From the NCBI RefSeq assembly GCF_009914755.1, contig NC_060936.1: a stretch of DNA of 64,000 nucleotides. One strand, given 5' to 3'. The DNA is from the human T2T-CHM13v2.0 reference genome, Homo sapiens. The translations under genes were made by a program, and so were the position numbers. A model generated the notes under the pieces. It was not told the origin of the DNA and made no database searches. It saw nothing but the letters and a program-made list of their open reading frames with translations. Shown in pieces: positions 16,126 through 26,589 of the stretch; position 1 is the stretch's first letter, and each line of letters opens with the position of its first letter.

Positions 16126-17864
16126 TAAAGGAAACAACTTTTTTTAAAAAAACACAAATACAAGATATGTGTAGGCGTTTGTACACAGAAAATACTAAAA
16201 TTTAGGTCCTTTCCCCTCTGGTTTTTCTACTACTAGTCTCAGTAAAGCAAATACTAGACACTAGAGGGACAGTAAAGCACAAAGAAAGAATGAGATACGC
16301 AGGACTAAAGCTTCAGCCAAAAGGACAAATCACAGATTATAACATTCTTATGCAGAAGAGCATTATGTAACAAGGTTAGTCTGACCCCGAAGGCTGACAA
16401 ATGGCCCAGATGACCTCATGATATTTTGAGAAGCATTACGTAAACTTTAAGTATCCACAGTTAGTGATAATCCTGACATTCCAACAAATTATAATATTTT
16501 CTTAATAATTATTAGCTATTATCAAGTATTGATTACAACATTTTCTAGCCCACACCACCTGTCTTTTCTATGGCAAACACATTTTGCATATGACGCCTAT
16601 AAACATCCTGCCACTTTTCCCTATCTTTCCTTCTCTGGTAACAGCAACTAGGGTTCATAAACAAAGCAGATTCATATGAGTAGCAGGTCAGTGTCCCTGG
16701 AGTCCTTTAGGACAGATGTGGCAGCATAGTTACAGAGGTTTACTTTGCTCTTTCCAATGGGACAAGGAAGTCCTCTGAAATCCACCTCTTAAACCTTTCT
16801 CCCTTACTGGTCTGAGTAAAAAATTAGGTGTTTATGGTAACCAAGTAAATTATTCCAAAATTTTGCTTTAAGGTATTTTAAGAAGAAACAATAACATGTT
16901 TTTTAAAACAAGATGCTTTGGATATATGTAATTGACTTTTATCAAATGAAGCTGAGATTTATTATCTAGATGTGATTGAATCCAAAGGACCATGTCAAAG
17001 GTTTACAGATCAGTGTCCCCGTAGGGTTTGCAAAGTTATTTAATGGATTTTACCAAATTTAAATTCAAATTTTGCTAAAATGCTTTAATTTTTAGAAATT
17101 GTAAAAATAATGTTTAGATATAGGCAAAATTTGGACAATATTGAATACTAGTGCACTAACTTGTACTGCCAGGTTATCTTTGTGTGAGGCTTCTCCTACT
17201 CTGTACCTCTATTTGTTTTTCACTGTTGAGGAAAGTAATAGCATACTCACTCACATAAACTAGTATACTACTAGAGCATGTGTATAGTATATATATTATA
17301 AAAGTTTAAGTCAGATGCATCTGCTTAGCAATGCTGTGGTCACAACCTAAGAATTGTGCAGTAACAAGTGAAGGAGTCAAGCTGCTGTCATAAAACTGTT
17401 TTATAGAGGCCCATTTTGGCTACTGTTTTGGGAGGTGGGGAAGTTCATATCTATGAGTTTCTATAAATTCAATTTTTATGTTTTACATATTTGGTATTCC
17501 ACACATTTTTCACTGGAAAAGTCTGTTAAAACTGTAGCACTAATAACGTTGCTTATCTTACTAGGGAATAAAAAAGGAATTAAGCTCTGAGCACCAATTT
17601 TTAAAAATCTATTTTTGAAGAATGCAAAGGAAATTTTTCATGCAGGTATGTTAAATCTTAATGGACTACTGGCCATCATTAGAATTTGCACCAGAAAATC
17701 AACTAACTGCTTGAGCATTACAGCATTCCTCTGTCTAAAACAAAAACAAAAACAAATTATAGGGCAAAGTGGTATTAAGTAAGCCCTAAGAAGGAAAAAT
17801 ATAGCAGGTGTAGGGGTGAGGATGTGAGATTAGAGAATGAGGAGAAAAAAAAAAAAAATCAAGA

Positions 17865-19952: not shown

Positions 19953-20499
19953 AAAAGTGCCTCTTATTTATAGATGTGTTAGCAGGTCGAACCTTGGACA
20001 AATCTAAATTGGAAAATGATCTAATATTAAAGTAAACTGTATGTTTCAATGGAATATTACCTTTATATGTATCGCTAAGCCTATGTTTGCAGATAAGAAA
20101 AAGCACAGGTTTACTTTAAGAAAAAAAAAAAAAACAATGTTTATGGAAGCGAAATCTTGTGCTACAAAGCAACTACCCTGAAACTCACTGTTATTAATTT
20201 TTACCCACTTATTATCATAAAAAAACTAGTTCTCAGATTCTGCATACAGACAGCTTTATGTAAAATATATAAACATTTGTCCAAATTGGTACACAGATTG
20301 CATAAATATGGCAATTAAGATTGCATTTACAGATGTGCATGTACAATGCTGTGCAAATTATCACAATATTACAATTTCAGAAATTATTCAAATTGGTATC
20401 CAAGTAAAGCAATTAGTGAAAAAATACCCATGCAGAATTTAAATATCTCAGAACAAAATTTAAAATGTCTTCATTAAAAGTTCACACATTTAAAATAGT

Positions 20500-20540
20500 T
20501 TTATTCATTTTATTTGTATATGTCAAAATACATTTTTATT
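20500..20540 (-). terminator. Cluster of three AATAAA signals
   Basis: tttatt at 20500-20505, 20509-20514, 20535-20540. Confidence 0.55.
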
Positions 20541-21149
20541 TCCAAAATAGTGGGTTTTGCAACTAGTTTCATGCAGAAACAAGGTCTGCTCAATACTACC
20601 AATAAAATCAATATAGCACAGTAGCTGTTCAGTTTTAGATACAAAGAATAAATAACCTAAATACAAAACACTAAAATATTAGAAACATGTATTTAATCAT
20701 TCTTCACAGGCATCCAAACTTCACAAATATAAACCATAGCATGCCTAACTGTTGTGCAACCAGAACATGTTGCAGTCACTCAAACTGATCAGTTATCTGT
20801 ATATTTTACCTCCACATAAGACCATGGAAATTCTCAATATTCAGACCTACCATTCATACAGTTCAAATATAACCAAAAATAAAACTCCCACAACTATCCT
20901 TGTACCTTTAAAATCAAGAATCCTGAGCTTGGTAGTAAGAGCATAACCTTATATCTTCATAAAACCAATCGAGAGAGAGAGGACTTAAAATCCTGCTTAC
21001 CAAAACACCCTTCCCCAACCCCAAAGTAATCTAAAATAGGCAGTAGAACACAATGACCTTTTAAAATGAAGGGGTACAAATTCACATTTAATATAGTATA
21101 CAATACAATCAATAATACAATCAGCTACTATAAGCTTTACAATGTACAA

Positions 21150-21155
21150 TTTATT
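21150..21155 (-). terminator. Proximal poly(A) signal AATAAA
   Basis: tttatt on + strand about 1.45 kb past the stop, followed (sense) by GU/U-rich sequence. Confidence 0.6.
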
Positions 21156-22596
21156 CAAATGGCTGAACTGTTCAGTGGTTAAGGAGACAGTTATGTGCCA
21201 GAAAGATGTAGTATTTTTTGCATGGTTTAATGAAAATATAAAAGCTATTTGTCCAAATAAAAGCCATCGTCACTATGTACTTGGTTTTGCGCTTTTTTTT
21301 CCTTAAAAAAAAAAAAGGCCACTGAAATGTATAAAATGGTCTGAACATGATGGTGGTATCAAAGTCGATGCCTCTTCACATGGCAATAACAGTGCATTTA
21401 ACATTAACTCACGGGTTAATTCTGCAAATGATTTCATAGCATTACTTTGGCTAGCACAACAGTTTTAGACAGCACTCAGATAAATATAGGTATGTGAAAT
21501 GTAAAGCAATTATCTTATGCAACTTTAATTATGGTTGAGTACTATCAAGTGAAAACTGAAAATAAAAGCACTTTACAGTAGGAAACTTTTGTAAAGATAG
21601 GGCTCCACATAATGTGTAACTTTTAAAGTCTTTATATCACATTGTTAGCAAATTTTGTTTTTTAACACTATCATGGAGTAGCCTACTCTGCATTAGCAGA
21701 CATTTGAAATAAGAAATAGTCAAGCATGCCATGTGGTGGTCTAAAAATCAAAACAATACACTTATTTGTATATACAGCATCACTCAGTACCTGCTAAAAT
21801 GAATGTGAAGATTACAGAATCTAACATCTTATACTACAATAAAAAAAAAGTGACCAATGAAGCAGAAAATAGGAATTAAAAGATCTAACCTCAAATGACT
21901 TTAAAGCATTCATATAAGAAATAAATGCATATTGCACAAACAGTGAAAGCATATGTTCCACCAAGCAATTCAGTTCCAGGTGGGAGACAACACAGCATTA
22001 GCCTAATACATGACAATAATCACAGAAGAGCAAGTGTTCTTTTCTGTAATGAAAAAGCTGTGAAAACATAGAAGACTCTGCCACATGAAGAGTTTAGAAG
22101 GAAAAAATACAAACCCAAACTTAGATGAAAAGCCAAAAAATTTAAATATCGAAAAACTCGAAACTGTGGCACATCAAAAAATGTTGAGTAACTGTCTTCT
22201 GTGAGAGCTGAAAGTTTTTGTTGACACAAAAGTATTTATGTACAACTAAGGCTTACTGGTTAAATATCTGAGGCATATCTGGCCTTGAACACTTTCCTTA
22301 TATGCTGGAGCTGTAAACAAGTTTTCTCAGTCATTAAAAAAAAATCTTCTCAGCAGCTGCATTAACATGAAACAATGGTCTTGATTAAAAAAAAAAACAA
22401 AAAACAAACCAACAACAACAAAAACACCCCAGAAAATTAAACAAAATGAAACAAAAATTCTAGATAAGAGGGCATTTGGCAGGATATCCGAAAATGACAG
22501 TCTCCAAGGATTCTTCCCAGACTTCCAGTGACTGCCAATTATGGTCCACTGGGTTACTAATATGTGCAATTCCATTACTTGCTGCTTTTTTTTTTT

Positions 22597-22683
22597 TTAT
22601 TTGGAAAGTTTGCTTATAACTCTGATCAAGGCCCCATTTTCATCCTTTAGCCTCTGGTTGTCTGCTTTTAGGTCTGGTAACAT
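22597..22683 (-). CDS. PPP1R12A: MYPT1 terminal coding exon: C-terminal leucine zipper (L1007/1014/1021/1028) and stop
   Basis: MLPDLKADNQRLKDENGALIRVISKLSK*; TAG acceptor at 22684-22685, TAA at 22597-22599. Confidence 0.98.
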   Translation of the reverse strand: MLPDLKADNQRLKDENGALIRVISKLSK

Positions 22684-24185
22684 CTATAAAGAGAAAAATT
22701 GAAGATCAAGTTTTACCTTCAATATTAAAAGATAAAACATTATTCTTAATAAATGTTATATTTTCACCACAAAACACATGATCAAGCTTTGTCAGTTATA
22801 TATATTTCTAGTATCTAAAACATGTATCAGGAAGAAGGAAAAAAACCACACCTGGATTTGTAAAGCTAATTAGTTTCATAAATGCTGGAATGAAAGGTTT
22901 ATTCTCTCCAAATTTTCCATTGAAATTTACTAAATCACTTGATTTTATGACTCACAAGCACACCACATTCCAGCAGCCAAGACAAGCCTGTTTTTGTTAG
23001 GATAGGCTCTTAAAAGAGGTTCCTGTCAGCACCTAAACCAAAGACTTTTGCTTTTATGTATGTCAGACCTAAAATCATAATACTTAATATTGTTCCACAA
23101 GAAAGTCAAACTACCTAGGAAAACATTGAGGAAATTAGACTTGTTCTAAATTATTAAAATTCCTTAAACGATTCACCTACAGTAGCTCAGTTTAAAATGC
23201 CTAAACAATGTCCGATCCCAGATAGATGCTTATTAAATGGTAACAAGCAATTACTATTATTAGAATAGTGCATCATGTTTAAGCTAAAGTAGAAAGTCTG
23301 TATCTATGATCCAACTATTACAAAAATAACCAATTTTGAAGCAAATAGCCTCATATCTTCAAACAACACATCTCAATTTTCTGTTGTTTTACAGACAAAT
23401 TGATGAAGGGGTGAAAATATTACAAGTTAACTGAATACTCTACTAAGGATGATTAAAACTGTATGTTCTTTGCCAGTTTCACTAGGAAATGAAATAGCTC
23501 ATATTTTTGGTCCCTAAACCATACTTTCCAAAATAGTCCTCTTTCCTCAGTTTTCAAAATGTATTAGTTTATCTAACTTGATAAAAGTAAAACTTCTATT
23601 TGCAAAACTAGGTAAAGCAAAATCTTTAAGAAGATTTAATTTTACGTGGAACCAATATGTTCTTATCTGTGTTCAGAATCTTTAAGATATAAAATATAGT
23701 AATATTAAGTTTATTCATTTGAATATTTGTAATATAAACTTAAATATAAACTAATGTGGTTCTGACTTCAAATGACATTATTTTGAAAAACATAATGCAT
23801 GCTTAATCTTCAGCTTCAAAATATATTAATTATATGTAAAATGTTATATACTGTTGGTTTTCTCTCTAGTAAAGAACTGTAAATAATAGTCATATTTTAA
23901 GTCCTAAAATATCTGTATAGCTAAAAAATGTGCAAAAGCTTTACAAAAGTACAGATAAGTCTTTAACTTAAATTCCAAAATCATCCCTAATTTTAATGTA
24001 GCTCATCAATTGCAATATACAATTAGTGACAATTTCTAACATTCTAAGAAGCCATGCATAATTAGTTATATGATATGCTCCAGACACAATGGCATTAATT
24101 TGTAAAAGTGAGCTCTTACAAAACACGCCTACTAATATAAAAACACCTGCCTGGCTCTACCAAGAAGAAATGATGAAACTAAAAA

Positions 24186-24320
24186 TTATAGGTTCACAGA
24201 CTGCAGTTGCCTATAGAACCCTGAGCGCTTGGCTACCACTCTTGTCAAGGCCCTATTCTCAGTCAGCAGTCGCTCATTTAACTCCCTCAGAGATTGAATT
24301 TGCTTTATTTGGTGCAGGTT
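24186..24320 (-). CDS. PPP1R12A: Candidate alternative C-terminal exon (44 aa + stop), duplicate of the leucine-zipper exon, MYPT2-like
   Basis: ~50-nt pyrimidine tract then CTGCAG|, followed by [44 protein letters not shown] in phase with exon 25. Confidence 0.7.
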
Positions 24321-25217
24321 CTGCAGGAATCAGAACATAAAGAAATAGGAATAAAAAATAAGAAAATGGAAAAGAGTATAATAAGAATGTAATCACAGGT
24401 AATTTTTTAAAAATATTACGTCTTAAAGGAACAAGAGATTCAGAAAGGTAAACACTGTATTCCTAAAATTCTATTTCAAACTAAGTAATACATAAGCAAA
24501 CAAAATACAAAAGATTTGTCTCCAATCTTCAAAGCCATTCAATAATGGTCTAATAACAAACCAAACAATTTAATAATGAAATATCTAAATCTTGAACTTC
24601 TAATTCTATGGGTACAACATACTTACTATGCACTGGTTCATTAATTCACAATGTGATAAAGATTTTATGAAGGACAGTGTGGTAAGAGGTAATCAATTAA
24701 CTATGCTACTTGTGAAGACATTCAAAACATAATTATTTCTATAGGTAATATGGAGTTTGATAAAATACAGCTCTGCCTGTTCACTCCCCTAATGTCCTTT
24801 ACTTTCAAAGGAGAACATTTTATAGTAACCCCCTCCACTACTTACTCGCCAAAAAACATGAAAGTATATAGAAACATAAAGAATAAATAATAAATCCTAC
24901 ATCTTATTATTATTGTCTAACTTTTTCTATACCTGAACAGCAAAAGTGCTACACAAATTAATTATCAAAATAATTCGGGTTTTATTTTTTATTTTATTTT
25001 TGCTCCTTCTTTTCATAGGTGTTAAGATTTGGGTTTTAGACCCTCTTCTGGCTCACTAAAACCTGGATTCAGGAAGAAAGAGAAGCACCAGATATAGACA
25101 GTTCACAAATTGGGTAATCAGCTTTGAGAACAATTAATGTAAACCATATCTATAATAGTATTTTAAACATTAATACATAAACAGCACTCTCTCTCATAAG
25201 TAACATAGTTTACTTAC

Positions 25218-25268
25218 TTTGAGCTCTTCTTCCATTTCAGATATTCTTCTTTCTAGAGCTCTTCGTTC
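25218..25268 (-). CDS. PPP1R12A: MYPT1 exon 25 (51 nt)
   Basis: ERRALERRISEMEEELK; TAG acceptor, GTAAGT donor. Confidence 0.97.
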
Positions 25269-25988
25269 CTAGATCGATTTAAGGTACCAATGTTAGTTAT
25301 ATAATTATTATATTCTTAAGTCTTCTTCTATACTGTGAAATAGTGATACTTCAGAATTAAAGGTCCAATCAGGAGCAGTGTAGAAAAGATGTGATGCCAG
25401 TGATATGTAAAGAGCTTTCCAAAATTTGACAAAAATAAATATGAAGATCTTTATCCTTAGAGTACAAGCTCTTAATTTAAAGCTTTGACTTTCTGGGAAG
25501 ATGCTACATAACATATTCAAACTACTTTTTGAGTTCATGTAAAACTTAGAGTGAATCAATACTCAAGACTGAAGACTGTACAGAAAAGAAAAACAAAACT
25601 CACACAAAGATGCAATCATATTACAGTGACAGAAGCAGAAAAGCAAGAAGCAAACATGCCTAAAATATGTGTACTTTGCAATTTCAGAGGAATGTAAGAG
25701 AAGCTCATTTCCTCCACTCACAATGTGTACTAGCCATTATTTATCCAACTGACTTTATAGCTTTGTATTTAGGTTGACATTATGTGTAGCATTAATGCAG
25801 TGAATGTAATAGAAAAGCAACTGCAGCGTTTATTTTAAACTTGTTTCAAAGAGTGACAGGCAAAGCCAACACACAACACATTATTGCAGTGTACTGTTTT
25901 ATTCTCCCTTAAATGATAAGCATTCTGGGGTGTTATGCAAAAAGCAAGCAGCAGTAATTGATGAGCTGTAAAACTGGTTAGGTCATAC

Positions 25989-26019
25989 CGCCCAGAAGAT
26001 ACTGACTCTTGCCGGTCAC
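25989..26019 (-). CDS. PPP1R12A: MYPT1 alternative exon E24 (31 nt); inclusion gives the leucine-zipper-negative isoform
   Basis: GTGACCGGCAAGAGTCAGTATCTTCTGGGCG between AAG acceptor and GTATGA donor; frameshift gives VTGKSQYLLGGTKSSRKKNI* with TGA at 25237-25239, the known LZ- tail. Confidence 0.93.
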
Positions 26020-26589
26020 CTTTCAGATACAAACCATTTAAATTTAGTTTAATCACACTGAAACTATTTCCAAGACACTCTTTCCCAGATTAATAAATAA
26101 TGCTGATATTTAGTCAAGCAGTACATTTACTGTAAATGTTAATGTTTTTAGGGTATGTGATTTTAAAAAGTAGACAGAATCCTACTGATCGTCTTTTAAG
26201 TACCATGTTATTCCAACATCGGCATGCCTAAACATTATTGTATAGACAGAAACATTATTTTCAATACATAGATCTTTCTTCTACTAAATAATACAGTCAT
26301 GACAAATTCATACAAATCATCACACTTCTCAAAATACTAGCACATAAAGTGTCATATTTGATCTTTACCACTTTGCAAAATATCAGAAATAGAATATTTC
26401 TTCTGAGAGGTAATCTCCCTATGAGCCTCAATTTTATTAGGTGTCTTCAAGATTTTAAATTAGTGGTAAAGTAAGACAAGAAAACTACACCCAACTGCCT
26501 GATTCTATTAGCTCAATGAAATTGACATCTGTAAAATGATATGAAATTTCTTATGTTTGACAAACATATTAACATTAAAAAATATAACT

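What the first reader, a model, noticed from the sequence alone, without database searches (positions are those of the whole stretch)
24147..24376. Hidden duplicate leucine-zipper exon in the last intron of MYPT1: a possible third C-terminus
Seen: on the minus strand a ~50-nt pyrimidine tract ends in CTGCAG. It is followed, in phase with exon 25, by [44 protein letters not shown] (24320-24186). This aligns with the canonical last exon ([23 protein letters not shown] vs [23 protein letters not shown]). Three heptad leucines are kept and the fourth is Arg (CGC, one base from CTC Leu). A possible donor CAG|GTGTTT at 24147 gives a 174-nt cassette whose stop is 39 nt from the last junction, so it should escape NMD. 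From memory, the paralog MYPT2 (PPP1R12B) has an alternative C-terminal exon beginning [33 protein letters not shown] at the equivalent position. Inference: the exon duplication predates the MYPT1/MYPT2 split. MYPT1 may therefore have a second LZ switch besides E24, making a variant zipper with altered PKG1-alpha or homo/heterodimer binding. The ORF track misses it because it has no start codon.
Basis: partly seen in the sequence, partly recalled or inferred. Interest (0 to 1): 0.92.

Follow-up and report, generated by a model that had tools for sequence, protein, structure and literature searches.

The report
Conserved alternative leucine-zipper exon of MYPT1
The last intron of the human MYPT1 gene holds an intact extra exon, kept from sharks to primates and modelled in many animals but absent from human RefSeq, that would give this myosin-phosphatase subunit a different zipper-like tail.

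Summary
On the minus strand, 24320-24186 reads in phase 0 after exon 25 as 44 codons plus a stop. A strong pyrimidine tract and CAG acceptor precede it, and a weak donor CAG|GTGTTT follows at 24147.

It is a real, ancient coding exon. 240 of 240 listed PPP1R12A protein models from cartilaginous fish to primates join ...EEELK directly to this tail, and 238 of the tails are exactly 44 residues. The human peptide is 44/44 identical to macaque, baboon and colugo models.

Its paralogue is the exon that gives curated human PPP1R12B isoform b, and the 10-base donor block CCAGGCAG|GT is identical in both genes. The peptide matches the end of Pfam PRKG1_interact, as the canonical last exon does. The Arg at the fourth heptad position is a fixed therian feature, not recent decay.

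No exon is annotated here in human RefSeq or in the Ensembl set reviewed in 2022. I found no human protein with this tail and no paper describing it. Published pooled junction counts leave little room for heavy use in bulk human tissue.

Verdict: a new, unannotated human member of a known kind. Human expression and function are untested.

The parts
25218..25268 (-). Exon 25 (literature numbering), constitutive. It ends ...ERRISEMEEELK on a complete codon and is the upstream splice partner.
   Evidence: Hub annotation; translation. The same 17 residues precede the alternative tail in the models checked.
24321..24376 (-). Pyrimidine tract and 3' splice site (…TTCCTGCAG|AAC). Branch-point-like YTNAY motifs have their A at -39, -32, -18 and -10.
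   Evidence: 80% pyrimidine over 56 nt. Only 0.29% of 56-nt windows on this strand reach that level. Pyrimidine content at -25..-4 is 0.77, against 0.36-0.91 for the 16 annotated acceptors in the window.
24147..24320 (-). Alternative stop-containing exon, 174 nt, here called E25b. It holds 44 codons (24320-24189), the stop TAA (24188-24186) and 39 nt of untranslated sequence (24185-24147).
   Evidence: The tail is present in 240 of 240 listed PPP1R12A models. Pfam PF15898 positions 71-100 are matched at E 3.2e-7.
24141..24149 (-). Putative 5' splice site CAG|GTGTTT. It is weak. It sits inside the block CCAGGCAG|GT, which is identical at the PPP1R12B paralogous exon.
   Evidence: it is the best GT within 250 nt after the stop (1.49 bits on a matrix recalled from memory; the 15 annotated donors in the window score 0.78-8.66); a 10-column identical block in alignment A1.
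22597..22683 (-). Coding part of the canonical last exon (whole exon 20238-22683): [28 protein letters not shown], the known leucine zipper. It would become 3' UTR when E25b is included.
   Evidence: Hub annotation.
25989..26019 (-). Known 31-nt alternative exon E24 (the LZ-minus switch), in the intron upstream of exon 25. Listed for orientation only.
   Evidence: an exact match to 15 bases of the published insert (PMC5087845, section read). Sequence with AG and GT borders.
23992..23997 (-). ATTAAA hexamer about 190 nt after the stop. It is a candidate poly(A) signal if the exon were used as a terminal exon instead of a cassette.
   Evidence: pattern match only.

Best explanation
This is a genuine alternative penultimate exon of PPP1R12A (MYPT1), older than jawed vertebrates' divergence, here called E25b. 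It is a tandem duplicate of the leucine-zipper-coding part of the last exon.

How it would work. When spliced in after exon 25 (phase 0), its 44 codons replace the canonical 28-residue zipper. Its own stop ends the protein, and the canonical last exon becomes 3' UTR. The stop lies 39 nt before the downstream junction, so by the 50-55 nt rule the mRNA should escape nonsense-mediated decay.

Product. Full-length MYPT1 of 1046 instead of 1030 residues, as in the 1046-aa models of other mammals. Its PRKG1-interacting coiled coil ends in a variant zipper:
- 'a' positions: I8, N15, N22, V29;
- 'd' positions: L11, L18, L25, then Arg32 in therian mammals;
- then L39 and a conserved tail QLQSVNL.

Shown: the frame, the splice signals, deep conservation under purifying selection, paralogy to the PPP1R12B isoform-b exon, and the lack of human annotation.

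Inferred: that the exon is still spliced in at a low or cell-type-restricted level in human, that it is a cassette using the donor at 24147, and that the variant zipper changes partner choice (PKG1-alpha, M20, self-association).
For: 1. Frame, phase, acceptor and donor are as described.

2; the 120 best of 185 hits (E <= 0.01) are all named PPP1R12A isoforms of placental mammals; 120 of 120 have a 44-residue tail directly after ...EEELK, in 9 distinct versions. 18 of 120 are identical to human (Papio, Macaca fascicularis, Cercocebus, Galeopterus, Cynocephalus).

3; the 120 best of 340 hits are PPP1R12A or 12A-like models, or unnamed ones. They come from sharks, a ray, a chimaera, sturgeon, paddlefish, bowfin, gar, tarpon, coelacanth, lungfish, frogs, salamanders, a caecilian, an alligator, birds including chicken, marsupials and one deer; 120 of 120 carry the tail, and 118 of 120 tails are 44 residues.

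4., human tail compared with others: Canis 42/44, Monodelphis 35/44, Gallus 35/44, Latimeria 34/44, Heterodontus 31/44.

5. One search, neutral simulation (divergences recalled, substitutions only). 44/44 identity with an intact frame has probability 0.004 at 0.06 substitutions per site. It occurred in 0 of 20000 runs at 0.2. At 0.35, 0 of 20000 runs reached 42/44 or more; at 0.8, 0 of 20000 reached 35/44 or more.

6; the peptide matches PF15898 PRKG1_interact positions 71-100 (31.3 bits). In the 1046-aa colugo model the domain runs 931-1035 (91.3 bits).

7; the only other copy in the human genome is on chr1 and encodes the tail of curated PPP1R12B isoform b. It matches 23/33 over the zipper part.

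8; the donor block CCAGGCAG|GT is identical in both paralogues. The 12B exon is 185 nt with its stop 50 nt before the junction.

9. The Alligator sinensis model P0325 runs on from the tail into CYQT. That is the +1 frame of the canonical last exon (one search shows the same residues in the human last exon). This fits splicing of this exon onto the last exon in that model.
Against: No human transcript evidence could be examined.

Human RefSeq (hub table, 5 transcripts) has no exon here. The 23 Ensembl transcripts reviewed in PMC9367544 (section 3.2) add exons only in introns 2, 9, 20 and 22. No Homo sapiens PPP1R12A protein is among the 18 hits with 100% identity, although human PPP1R12B proteins are in that database. 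No ape model appears in the listed 120 either.

In that paper's pooled junction table (supplementary spreadsheet 1), reads entering exon 25 (99862 + 2020 + 566 = 102448) are matched by E25-E26 reads (103394). Use of another exit from exon 25 in bulk human data must therefore be small. The table lists no other junction from exon 25.

The donor is weak: 1.49 bits against a mean of 4.16 for the 15 annotated donors.

The models in other species are automatic predictions, and I could not see their transcript support.

Whether mouse and rat keep the exon is unknown; none is in the listed rows.
Confidence: 0.8

Rival explanations
1. A vestigial exon in the human or ape lineage. It was functional in the vertebrate ancestor and probably still is in many animals, but it is no longer spliced into human MYPT1 mRNA. 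The sequence is still intact only because too little time has passed.
For: No human annotation (hub table; PMC9367544 section 3.2). No human or ape PPP1R12A model among the 120 listed rows. Inbound and outbound junction counts at exon 25 balance in pooled human data. The donor is weak.
Against: Frame, stop, acceptor and donor are all intact. The peptide is 44/44 identical to Old World monkey models, which the simulation gives probability 0.004 under neutrality at 0.06 substitutions per site, and to colugo models (0 of 20000 at 0.2). Any loss of constraint would therefore have to be very recent. Balanced bulk counts cannot exclude use at about 1% or in rare cell types.
Confidence: 0.12
2. An alternative terminal exon rather than a cassette. 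Transcripts that include it end at a nearby poly(A) site, such as ATTAAA at 23997-23992 or AATAAA at 23715, and never reach the canonical last exon.
For: Hexamers are present about 190 and 470 nt after the stop. The donor is weak.
Against: The 10-base block spanning the donor (CCAGGCAG|GT) is identical in the PPP1R12B paralogue after roughly half a billion years, which points to selection on a splice site. The alligator model runs from this exon into the last exon. The hexamers are bare pattern matches in AT-rich intron. The protein product would be the same under either reading.
Confidence: 0.15
3. The conservation is non-coding. Under this reading the block is an intronic splicing or regulatory element, or part of the antisense transcript PPP1R12A-AS2, and the open frame and the gene models are by-products of homology-based annotation.
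For: All models seen are automatic predictions. The region lies inside an intron of the antisense lncRNA (hub table).
Against: Frame length is kept at exactly 44 codons, with the stop in place, in 238 of 240 models across jawed vertebrates. Changes are concentrated at a few positions and are mostly conservative, while the heptad a/d positions and ENRALTRV are fixed. The paralogous exon is translated in a curated human protein. The antisense exons (17565-17645, 25019-25113, 25241-26574) do not overlap it.
Confidence: 0.03

Closest known systems
Alternative 3' coding exon of PPP1R12B (MYPT2) that yields curated human 'isoform b' (998 aa, P0259)
   Same: Both exons code 44 residues plus a stop. 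Both are joined in phase 0 after ...EMEEE[LM]K. 23 of the first 33 residues are identical, including an identical [10 protein letters not shown]. Both have the donor block CCAGGCAG|GT, a short stop-to-junction distance (39 and 50 nt), and a position upstream of the canonical zipper exon.
   Different: The 12B exon is curated and named in human; the 12A exon is not annotated in human. 12B keeps Leu at heptad position 32 where therian 12A has Arg. The last 11 residues are unrelated (SESIESSDTQEL against [12 protein letters not shown]). The distance to the last exon is 5.3 kb in 12B and 1.5 kb in 12A.
Predicted PPP1R12A isoforms with this tail in other vertebrates (for example Macaca fascicularis X1, Canis X1, Gallus gallus X3, Latimeria X1, Heterodontus X1)
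   Same: They carry the orthologous exon in the same position and with the same length. The tail is 100% identical in Old World monkey and colugo models.
   Different: They are automatic models in other species. No such model exists for human in the sources searched. Non-mammals have Leu32 and the ending ...QLQ(A/S)VDL.
MYPT1 exon 24 LZ+/LZ- switch (31-nt frameshifting cassette)
   Same: Both are alternative exons at the 3' end of the same gene that decide whether the canonical zipper is made (PMC9367544 sections read; PMC13755552 passages).
   Different: E24 lies one intron upstream (25989-26019). It works by frameshift and removes the zipper. E25b is in frame and substitutes a second, zipper-like ending.
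Canonical MYPT1 leucine zipper / Pfam PF15898 PRKG1_interact, C-terminal part
   Same: The two share 12/26 identity. Both match the same profile positions, 71-100 and 75-101 of 101. They have the same a/d pattern: Asn, Asn, Val/Ile at 'a' and Leu at 'd'.
   Different: The human E25b tail has three heptad leucines followed by Arg, and 11 further residues beyond the profile end. Scored alone it reaches 31.3 bits, just under the curated 32.4-bit cut-off.

Membership tests
MYPT-family alternative zipper exon (type: PPP1R12B isoform b exon) | Lies between the ...EMEEE[LM]K exon and the canonical zipper exon, on the same strand | tested here: met
   In the window the order is 25218-25268, then 24147-24320, then 22683 and below. 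On chr1 the 12B exon at 201836795 lies upstream of the canonical exon at 201842271. The 12B upstream exon was not found within the 1.5 kb held.
MYPT-family alternative zipper exon (type: PPP1R12B isoform b exon) | Phase-0 acceptor, 44 codons, own stop | tested here: met
MYPT-family alternative zipper exon (type: PPP1R12B isoform b exon) | Sequence homology to the 12B exon beyond chance | tested here: met
   E 7.5e-7 against the whole genome, 68% identity over 34 residues; it is the only hit other than the exon itself; 23/33 identical.
MYPT-family alternative zipper exon (type: PPP1R12B isoform b exon) | Included in mature human mRNA | not testable with these tools
   No RNA-seq or EST resource was available. 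Indirect published counts limit bulk use to a small fraction.
Pfam PF15898 PRKG1_interact (C-terminal segment) | Match to the profile at or above the curated cut-off | tested here: inconclusive
   The peptide alone scores 31.3 bits against a cut-off of 32.4 (E 3.2e-7). In the context of the 1046-aa colugo model, whose tail is identical to human, the domain scores 91.3 bits and spans 931-1035.
Classical leucine zipper (four or more Leu at successive 'd' positions) | Leu at every seventh position over at least four heptads | tested here: not met
   The human tail has L11, L18, L25, then R32, then L39. Non-mammalian orthologues have L32 and meet the criterion. The therian form is a variant zipper.
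NMD-escaping stop-containing cassette | Stop no more than 50-55 nt upstream of the last exon junction (established rule) | tested here: met
   39 nt if the donor at 24147 is used. Use of that donor is itself inferred.
Parallel coiled-coil homodimer | Self-association of the tail | tested here: inconclusive
   The one prediction job gave no verdict; see Tried and rejected.

The most novel reading that the evidence does not exclude
MYPT1 has a third, so far unstudied C-terminal state besides LZ+ and LZ-. This is a second zipper inherited from before the MYPT1/MYPT2 split. In therian mammals it was retuned by a fixed Leu-to-Arg change at a core 'd' position, and it ends in a conserved hydrophobic-x-hydrophobic tail (V-N-L; V-D-L in other vertebrates).

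If it is expressed in particular human cell types, it would produce myosin phosphatase that targets normally but pairs differently through its tail. Examples would be weaker self-association or PKG1-alpha binding, preferential pairing with M20 or MYPT2 tails of the same type, or docking of the free C-terminus to another partner. That would add a new layer to the control of NO/cGMP sensitivity.
Probability: 0.3. Interest if true: 0.8.

Novelty: new member of a known kind. Interest (0 to 1): 0.6.

Why it matters
[quoted passage not shown] The field describes only two states, set by exon 24 (passages of the 2026 review PMC13755552; PMC9367544).

An in-frame second zipper exon, kept for the whole history of jawed vertebrates and intact in human, means there may be a third state that primers, antibodies and junction tables built on the human annotation cannot see.

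Standard proteomics would also miss it. Every tryptic peptide of the tail is 7 residues or shorter.

At the least this is a concrete annotation gap in a medically studied gene. PPP1R12A variants cause a developmental disorder (recalled, not checked here), so variants in these 44 codons are currently read as deep-intronic.

Tried and rejected
1. Homodimer prediction of exon 25 plus the tail (residues 986-1046 of the colugo model P0031, two copies). Four hand-ins met a full queue and the job was accepted. The result was 'no answer' (score 0.19, mark 0.32; controls not run; my alignment was not used). It counts neither for nor against binding.

3. Three papers of the Fisher laboratory are not held: PMC4121627 (Dippold and Fisher 2014, bioinformatic study of myosin phosphatase subunits), PMC4349328 and PMC8917933. 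The first is the most likely place for an earlier mention of this exon, so my statement that it is undescribed is limited by that gap.

4. Literature searches that found no description of this exon:
- a 14-residue stretch of the peptide, matched anywhere: 0 papers;
- 'MYPT1' + 'MYPT2' + 'leucine zipper' + 'alternative exon': 0;
- 'MYPT1' + 'leucine zipper' + 'exon 25': 0;
- 'MYPT1' + 'leucine zipper' + 'novel isoform': 0;
- 'PPP1R12A' + 'alternative last exon': 6 papers, 4 listed. The one I opened concerns exon 14;
- 'MYPT1' + 'mutually exclusive exon': 14 papers, 10 listed. The one I opened concerns exon 13;
- 'hHS-M21': 1 paper, not opened.

5. Solved structures: no significant match to the 44-residue peptide (best E 0.94, MCM2, taken as chance).

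6. A third copy near PPP1R12C: none in the whole-genome search at E <= 10, and none within 1.5 kb on either side of its last exon.

7. I first suspected that E24 shared this intron or this acceptor. It does not: E24 is at 25989-26019.

8. The short 'proteins' P0004-P0022 from the unnamed representative library read through the pyrimidine tract into the paralogous or orthologous exon. I take them as open-frame calls on genomic DNA, not as evidence of small proteins.
Full report
WHAT IS THERE

On the minus strand, bases 24320-24186 translate without interruption to [44 protein letters not shown] followed by TAA. The upstream annotated exon (25218-25268, exon 25 in the literature numbering) ends ...ERRISEMEEELK on a whole codon, so the new frame is in phase with it.

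The 56 bases before the frame (24376-24321) are 80% pyrimidine and end in CTGCAG. Only 0.29% of all 56-base windows on this strand are as pyrimidine-rich. Over -25..-4 the tract scores 0.77, against 0.36-0.91 for the 16 annotated acceptors of the gene in this window.

Thirty-nine bases after the stop lies CAG|GTGTTT (last exon base 24147). On a donor matrix whose frequencies I recalled from memory it scores 1.49 bits. That is the best of the 15 GT sites within about 250 bases after the stop. It falls inside the range of the 15 annotated donors in this window (0.78-8.66, mean 4.16), at the weak end. The exon would be 174 nt.

The stretch is not among the repeat-masked intervals listed by the hub, and it does not overlap the exons of the antisense lncRNA.

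The known 31-nt exon E24 is elsewhere, at 25989-26019, one intron upstream (insert sequence from PMC5087845, section read).

IS IT MORE THAN CHANCE?

Against the canonical last-exon peptide, BLASTP gives 12/26 identities, E 2e-6 for the single comparison.

Both peptides match the same end of Pfam PF15898 (PRKG1_interact, the cGMP-dependent protein kinase interacting domain). The new one matches positions 71-100 of 101 at E 3.2e-7 (31.3 bits, cut-off 32.4). The canonical one matches 75-101 at E 2e-13. The two exons are therefore homologous and lie in tandem.

RELATIVES

1. Unnamed representatives. A full HMMER pass over 1.84 billion representatives gave 20 hits at E <= 0.001. One is a 413-aa MYPT1-like protein ending ...ERRISEMEEELK plus a 44-residue tail. 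Another is a 1003-aa MYPT2-like protein with the paralogous tail.

2. Named placental models. A word-indexed search of the named database for longer proteins gave 185 hits at E <= 0.01. The 120 listed are all named protein phosphatase 1 regulatory subunit 12A, from placental mammals. In all 120 the tail follows ...EEELK directly and is 44 residues long, in nine distinct versions. 18 are identical to the human translation (Papio anubis, Macaca fascicularis, Cercocebus atys, Galeopterus variegatus, Cynocephalus volans). 57 carry the commonest version, which differs at two positions (S10T, Y36C).

3. Named non-placental models. A search seeded with the sturgeon-like tail gave 340 hits, of which 120 are listed. 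They are PPP1R12A models from six or more shark and ray genera, Callorhinchus, sturgeon, paddlefish, bowfin, gar, tarpon, coelacanth, lungfish, many frogs, two salamanders, a caecilian, Alligator sinensis, many birds including Gallus gallus, and three marsupials, plus one deer. All 120 carry the tail, and 118 tails are 44 residues. The exceptions are lungfish (46) and alligator (48).

4. Identity to the human peptide falls smoothly with distance: Canis 42/44, Cebus 41/44, Monodelphis 35/44, Gallus 35/44, Latimeria 34/44, Ambystoma 33/44, Heterodontus and Callorhinchus 31/44.

5. Position by position, across 51 distinct 12A tails and 17 distinct 12B tails: E21, N22, A24, L25, R27 and V28 never vary. 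L18 is invariant. The heptad 'a' positions hold I, N, N, V, and the 'd' positions hold L, L, L.

SELECTION

I had no orthologous DNA, so I simulated neutral substitution of the human 135 bases (no indels; divergences are my recalled rough values).
- At 0.06 substitutions per site, a frame that stays intact and 44/44 identical occurs with probability 0.004.
- At 0.2, it occurred in 0 of 20000 runs.
- At 0.35, no run reached 42/44.
- At 0.8, no run reached 35/44.

The pattern is that of a coding exon under purifying selection along the lineage leading to human, at least until the split from Old World monkeys.

THE ARG

All nine placental and all three marsupial distinct tails have Arg there. All 39 distinct non-mammal tails, and all 17 PPP1R12B tails, have Leu. 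It is an old, fixed therian change, not a lesion.

THE PARALOGUE

The human genome could be searched. The peptide finds only itself and one site on chr1, 201836795-201836896 (+), E 7.5e-7. [quoted passage not shown]

The canonical zipper exon finds chr12, chr1 (5.3 kb downstream of the 12B alternative exon) and chr19, which is PPP1R12C. No alternative-exon copy was found at PPP1R12C.

Aligned at the DNA level, the two alternative exons share the acceptor ...CAG|AACCT and an identical 10-base block CCAGGCAG|GT at the proposed donor, although the untranslated bases between stop and donor are otherwise unalike. The 12B exon is 185 nt, with its stop 50 nt before the junction.

It also supports the view that both genes inherited a two-exon arrangement (alternative zipper exon, then canonical zipper exon) from their common ancestor. 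The presence of the exon in cartilaginous-fish PPP1R12A fits that view.

HOW IT MOST LIKELY WORKS

Inclusion after exon 25 swaps the 28-residue zipper for a 44-residue variant and ends translation. The last exon becomes UTR. By the 50-55 nt rule (established knowledge) the message is not an NMD target.

The alligator model, whose tail lacks a stop and continues CYQT, fits cassette use. CYQT is the +1 reading of the start of the canonical last exon, and the same residues are visible in the human exon.

The protein would keep everything up to residue 1002 and complete the PRKG1_interact domain with the alternative ending. In the 1046-aa colugo model the domain is called over 931-1035.

What the variant ending does to PKG1-alpha binding, to M20 binding or to self-association is inference only. 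The single complex prediction gave no verdict and is not used as evidence.

STATUS IN HUMAN

- RefSeq on T2T lists five transcripts and no exon here (hub table).
- PMC9367544 (abstract, sections 3.2 and figure legends, 'find' passages, supplementary spreadsheets 1 and part of 3; its PDF supplement could not be read) reviews 23 Ensembl transcripts. It reports extra exons only in introns 2, 9, 20 and 22.
- Its pooled junction table shows 102448 reads entering exon 25 and 103394 for E25-E26. That leaves little room for another exit in bulk tissue. No other exit was tabulated, and the GTEx counts there follow annotated junctions.
- No human PPP1R12A protein with this tail is among the 100%-identity hits.
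- A review dated October 2026 (PMC13755552, passages only) lists the MYPT1 variants as N-terminal, central insert, exon 22 and exon 24.
- All ten of my full-text searches found no description.
- Three Fisher-laboratory papers that might mention the exon are not held.

So the exon is intact and constrained but unannotated in human and, as far as I could see, undescribed for MYPT1. Whether it is used in human is open.

COMPARISON WITH WHAT IS KNOWN, AND NOVELTY

It works like, and by the tests I could run is a member of, the kind represented by the PPP1R12B isoform-b exon. It is the orthologue of an exon already modelled automatically in well over a hundred other vertebrates.

It is not a classical four-leucine zipper in mammals. 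It differs in mechanism from the E24 switch, which acts by frameshift and loss of the zipper.

I rate it a new (human, unannotated) member of a known kind, with interest 0.6. Conservation is strong and the test is cheap and decisive. Against that, the exon is visible in other species' annotation, bulk human use appears low, and function is unknown.

Noticed in passing
window 25989-26019 (-): The well-studied 31-nt exon E24 (GTGACCGGCAAGAGTCAGTATCTTCTGGGCG, flanked by AG and GT) is present and intact. It is not in the RefSeq exon list given by the hub. PMC9367544 also says that it is not annotated in GenBank.
   Followed up: partly
P0325 (Alligator sinensis PPP1R12A isoform X4), last 48 residues: This model's alternative tail has no stop and continues as CYQT, the +1 frame of the canonical last exon. 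That implies a model in which the alternative exon is spliced onto the last exon through a donor at or before the stop codon.
   Followed up: partly
G000 chr19:58185965-58186045 (-), locus L005: PPP1R12C keeps the canonical zipper exon (89% identical to MYPT1's). No copy of the alternative exon shows up in the genome-wide search or within 1.5 kb of it. The exon was either lost in 12C or has diverged beyond recognition.
   Followed up: partly
window 24189-24209 (-), last seven residues QLQSVNL: The extreme C-terminus is conserved within PPP1R12A (QLQ-S/A-V-D/N-L in 45 or more of 51 distinct tails at each of L39, V42 and L44) but not in PPP1R12B. It has the hydrophobic-x-hydrophobic form of a class II PDZ ligand. 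That motif class is recalled from memory and was not tested.
   Followed up: no
P0001, whole peptide: Trypsin would cut the tail into pieces of 6, 6, 5, 6, 4, 4, 1, 5 and 7 residues. Routine shotgun proteomics would be nearly blind to this isoform.
   Followed up: yes
P0004-P0022 (unnamed representative library): Many short 'proteins' of 70-212 aa consist of a translated pyrimidine tract running into the 12B-type or 12A-type alternative exon. They look like prokaryote-style ORF calls on vertebrate genomic DNA.
   Followed up: no
window 24304-24309 (-): An AATAAA hexamer lies inside the coding part of the exon (codons for I-K). It is probably without meaning.
   Followed up: no
P0036, P0040, P0129 and similar models (1084-1085 aa): Many mammalian 'isoform X1' models combine this tail with an extra 39-residue insert (YDFIAPIMPVVESVDPASWRQGLRKTGIVLVPNKGEKSM) after ...SPIKK. 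This may correspond to the E9+ exon discussed in PMC9367544, but I did not check.
   Followed up: no
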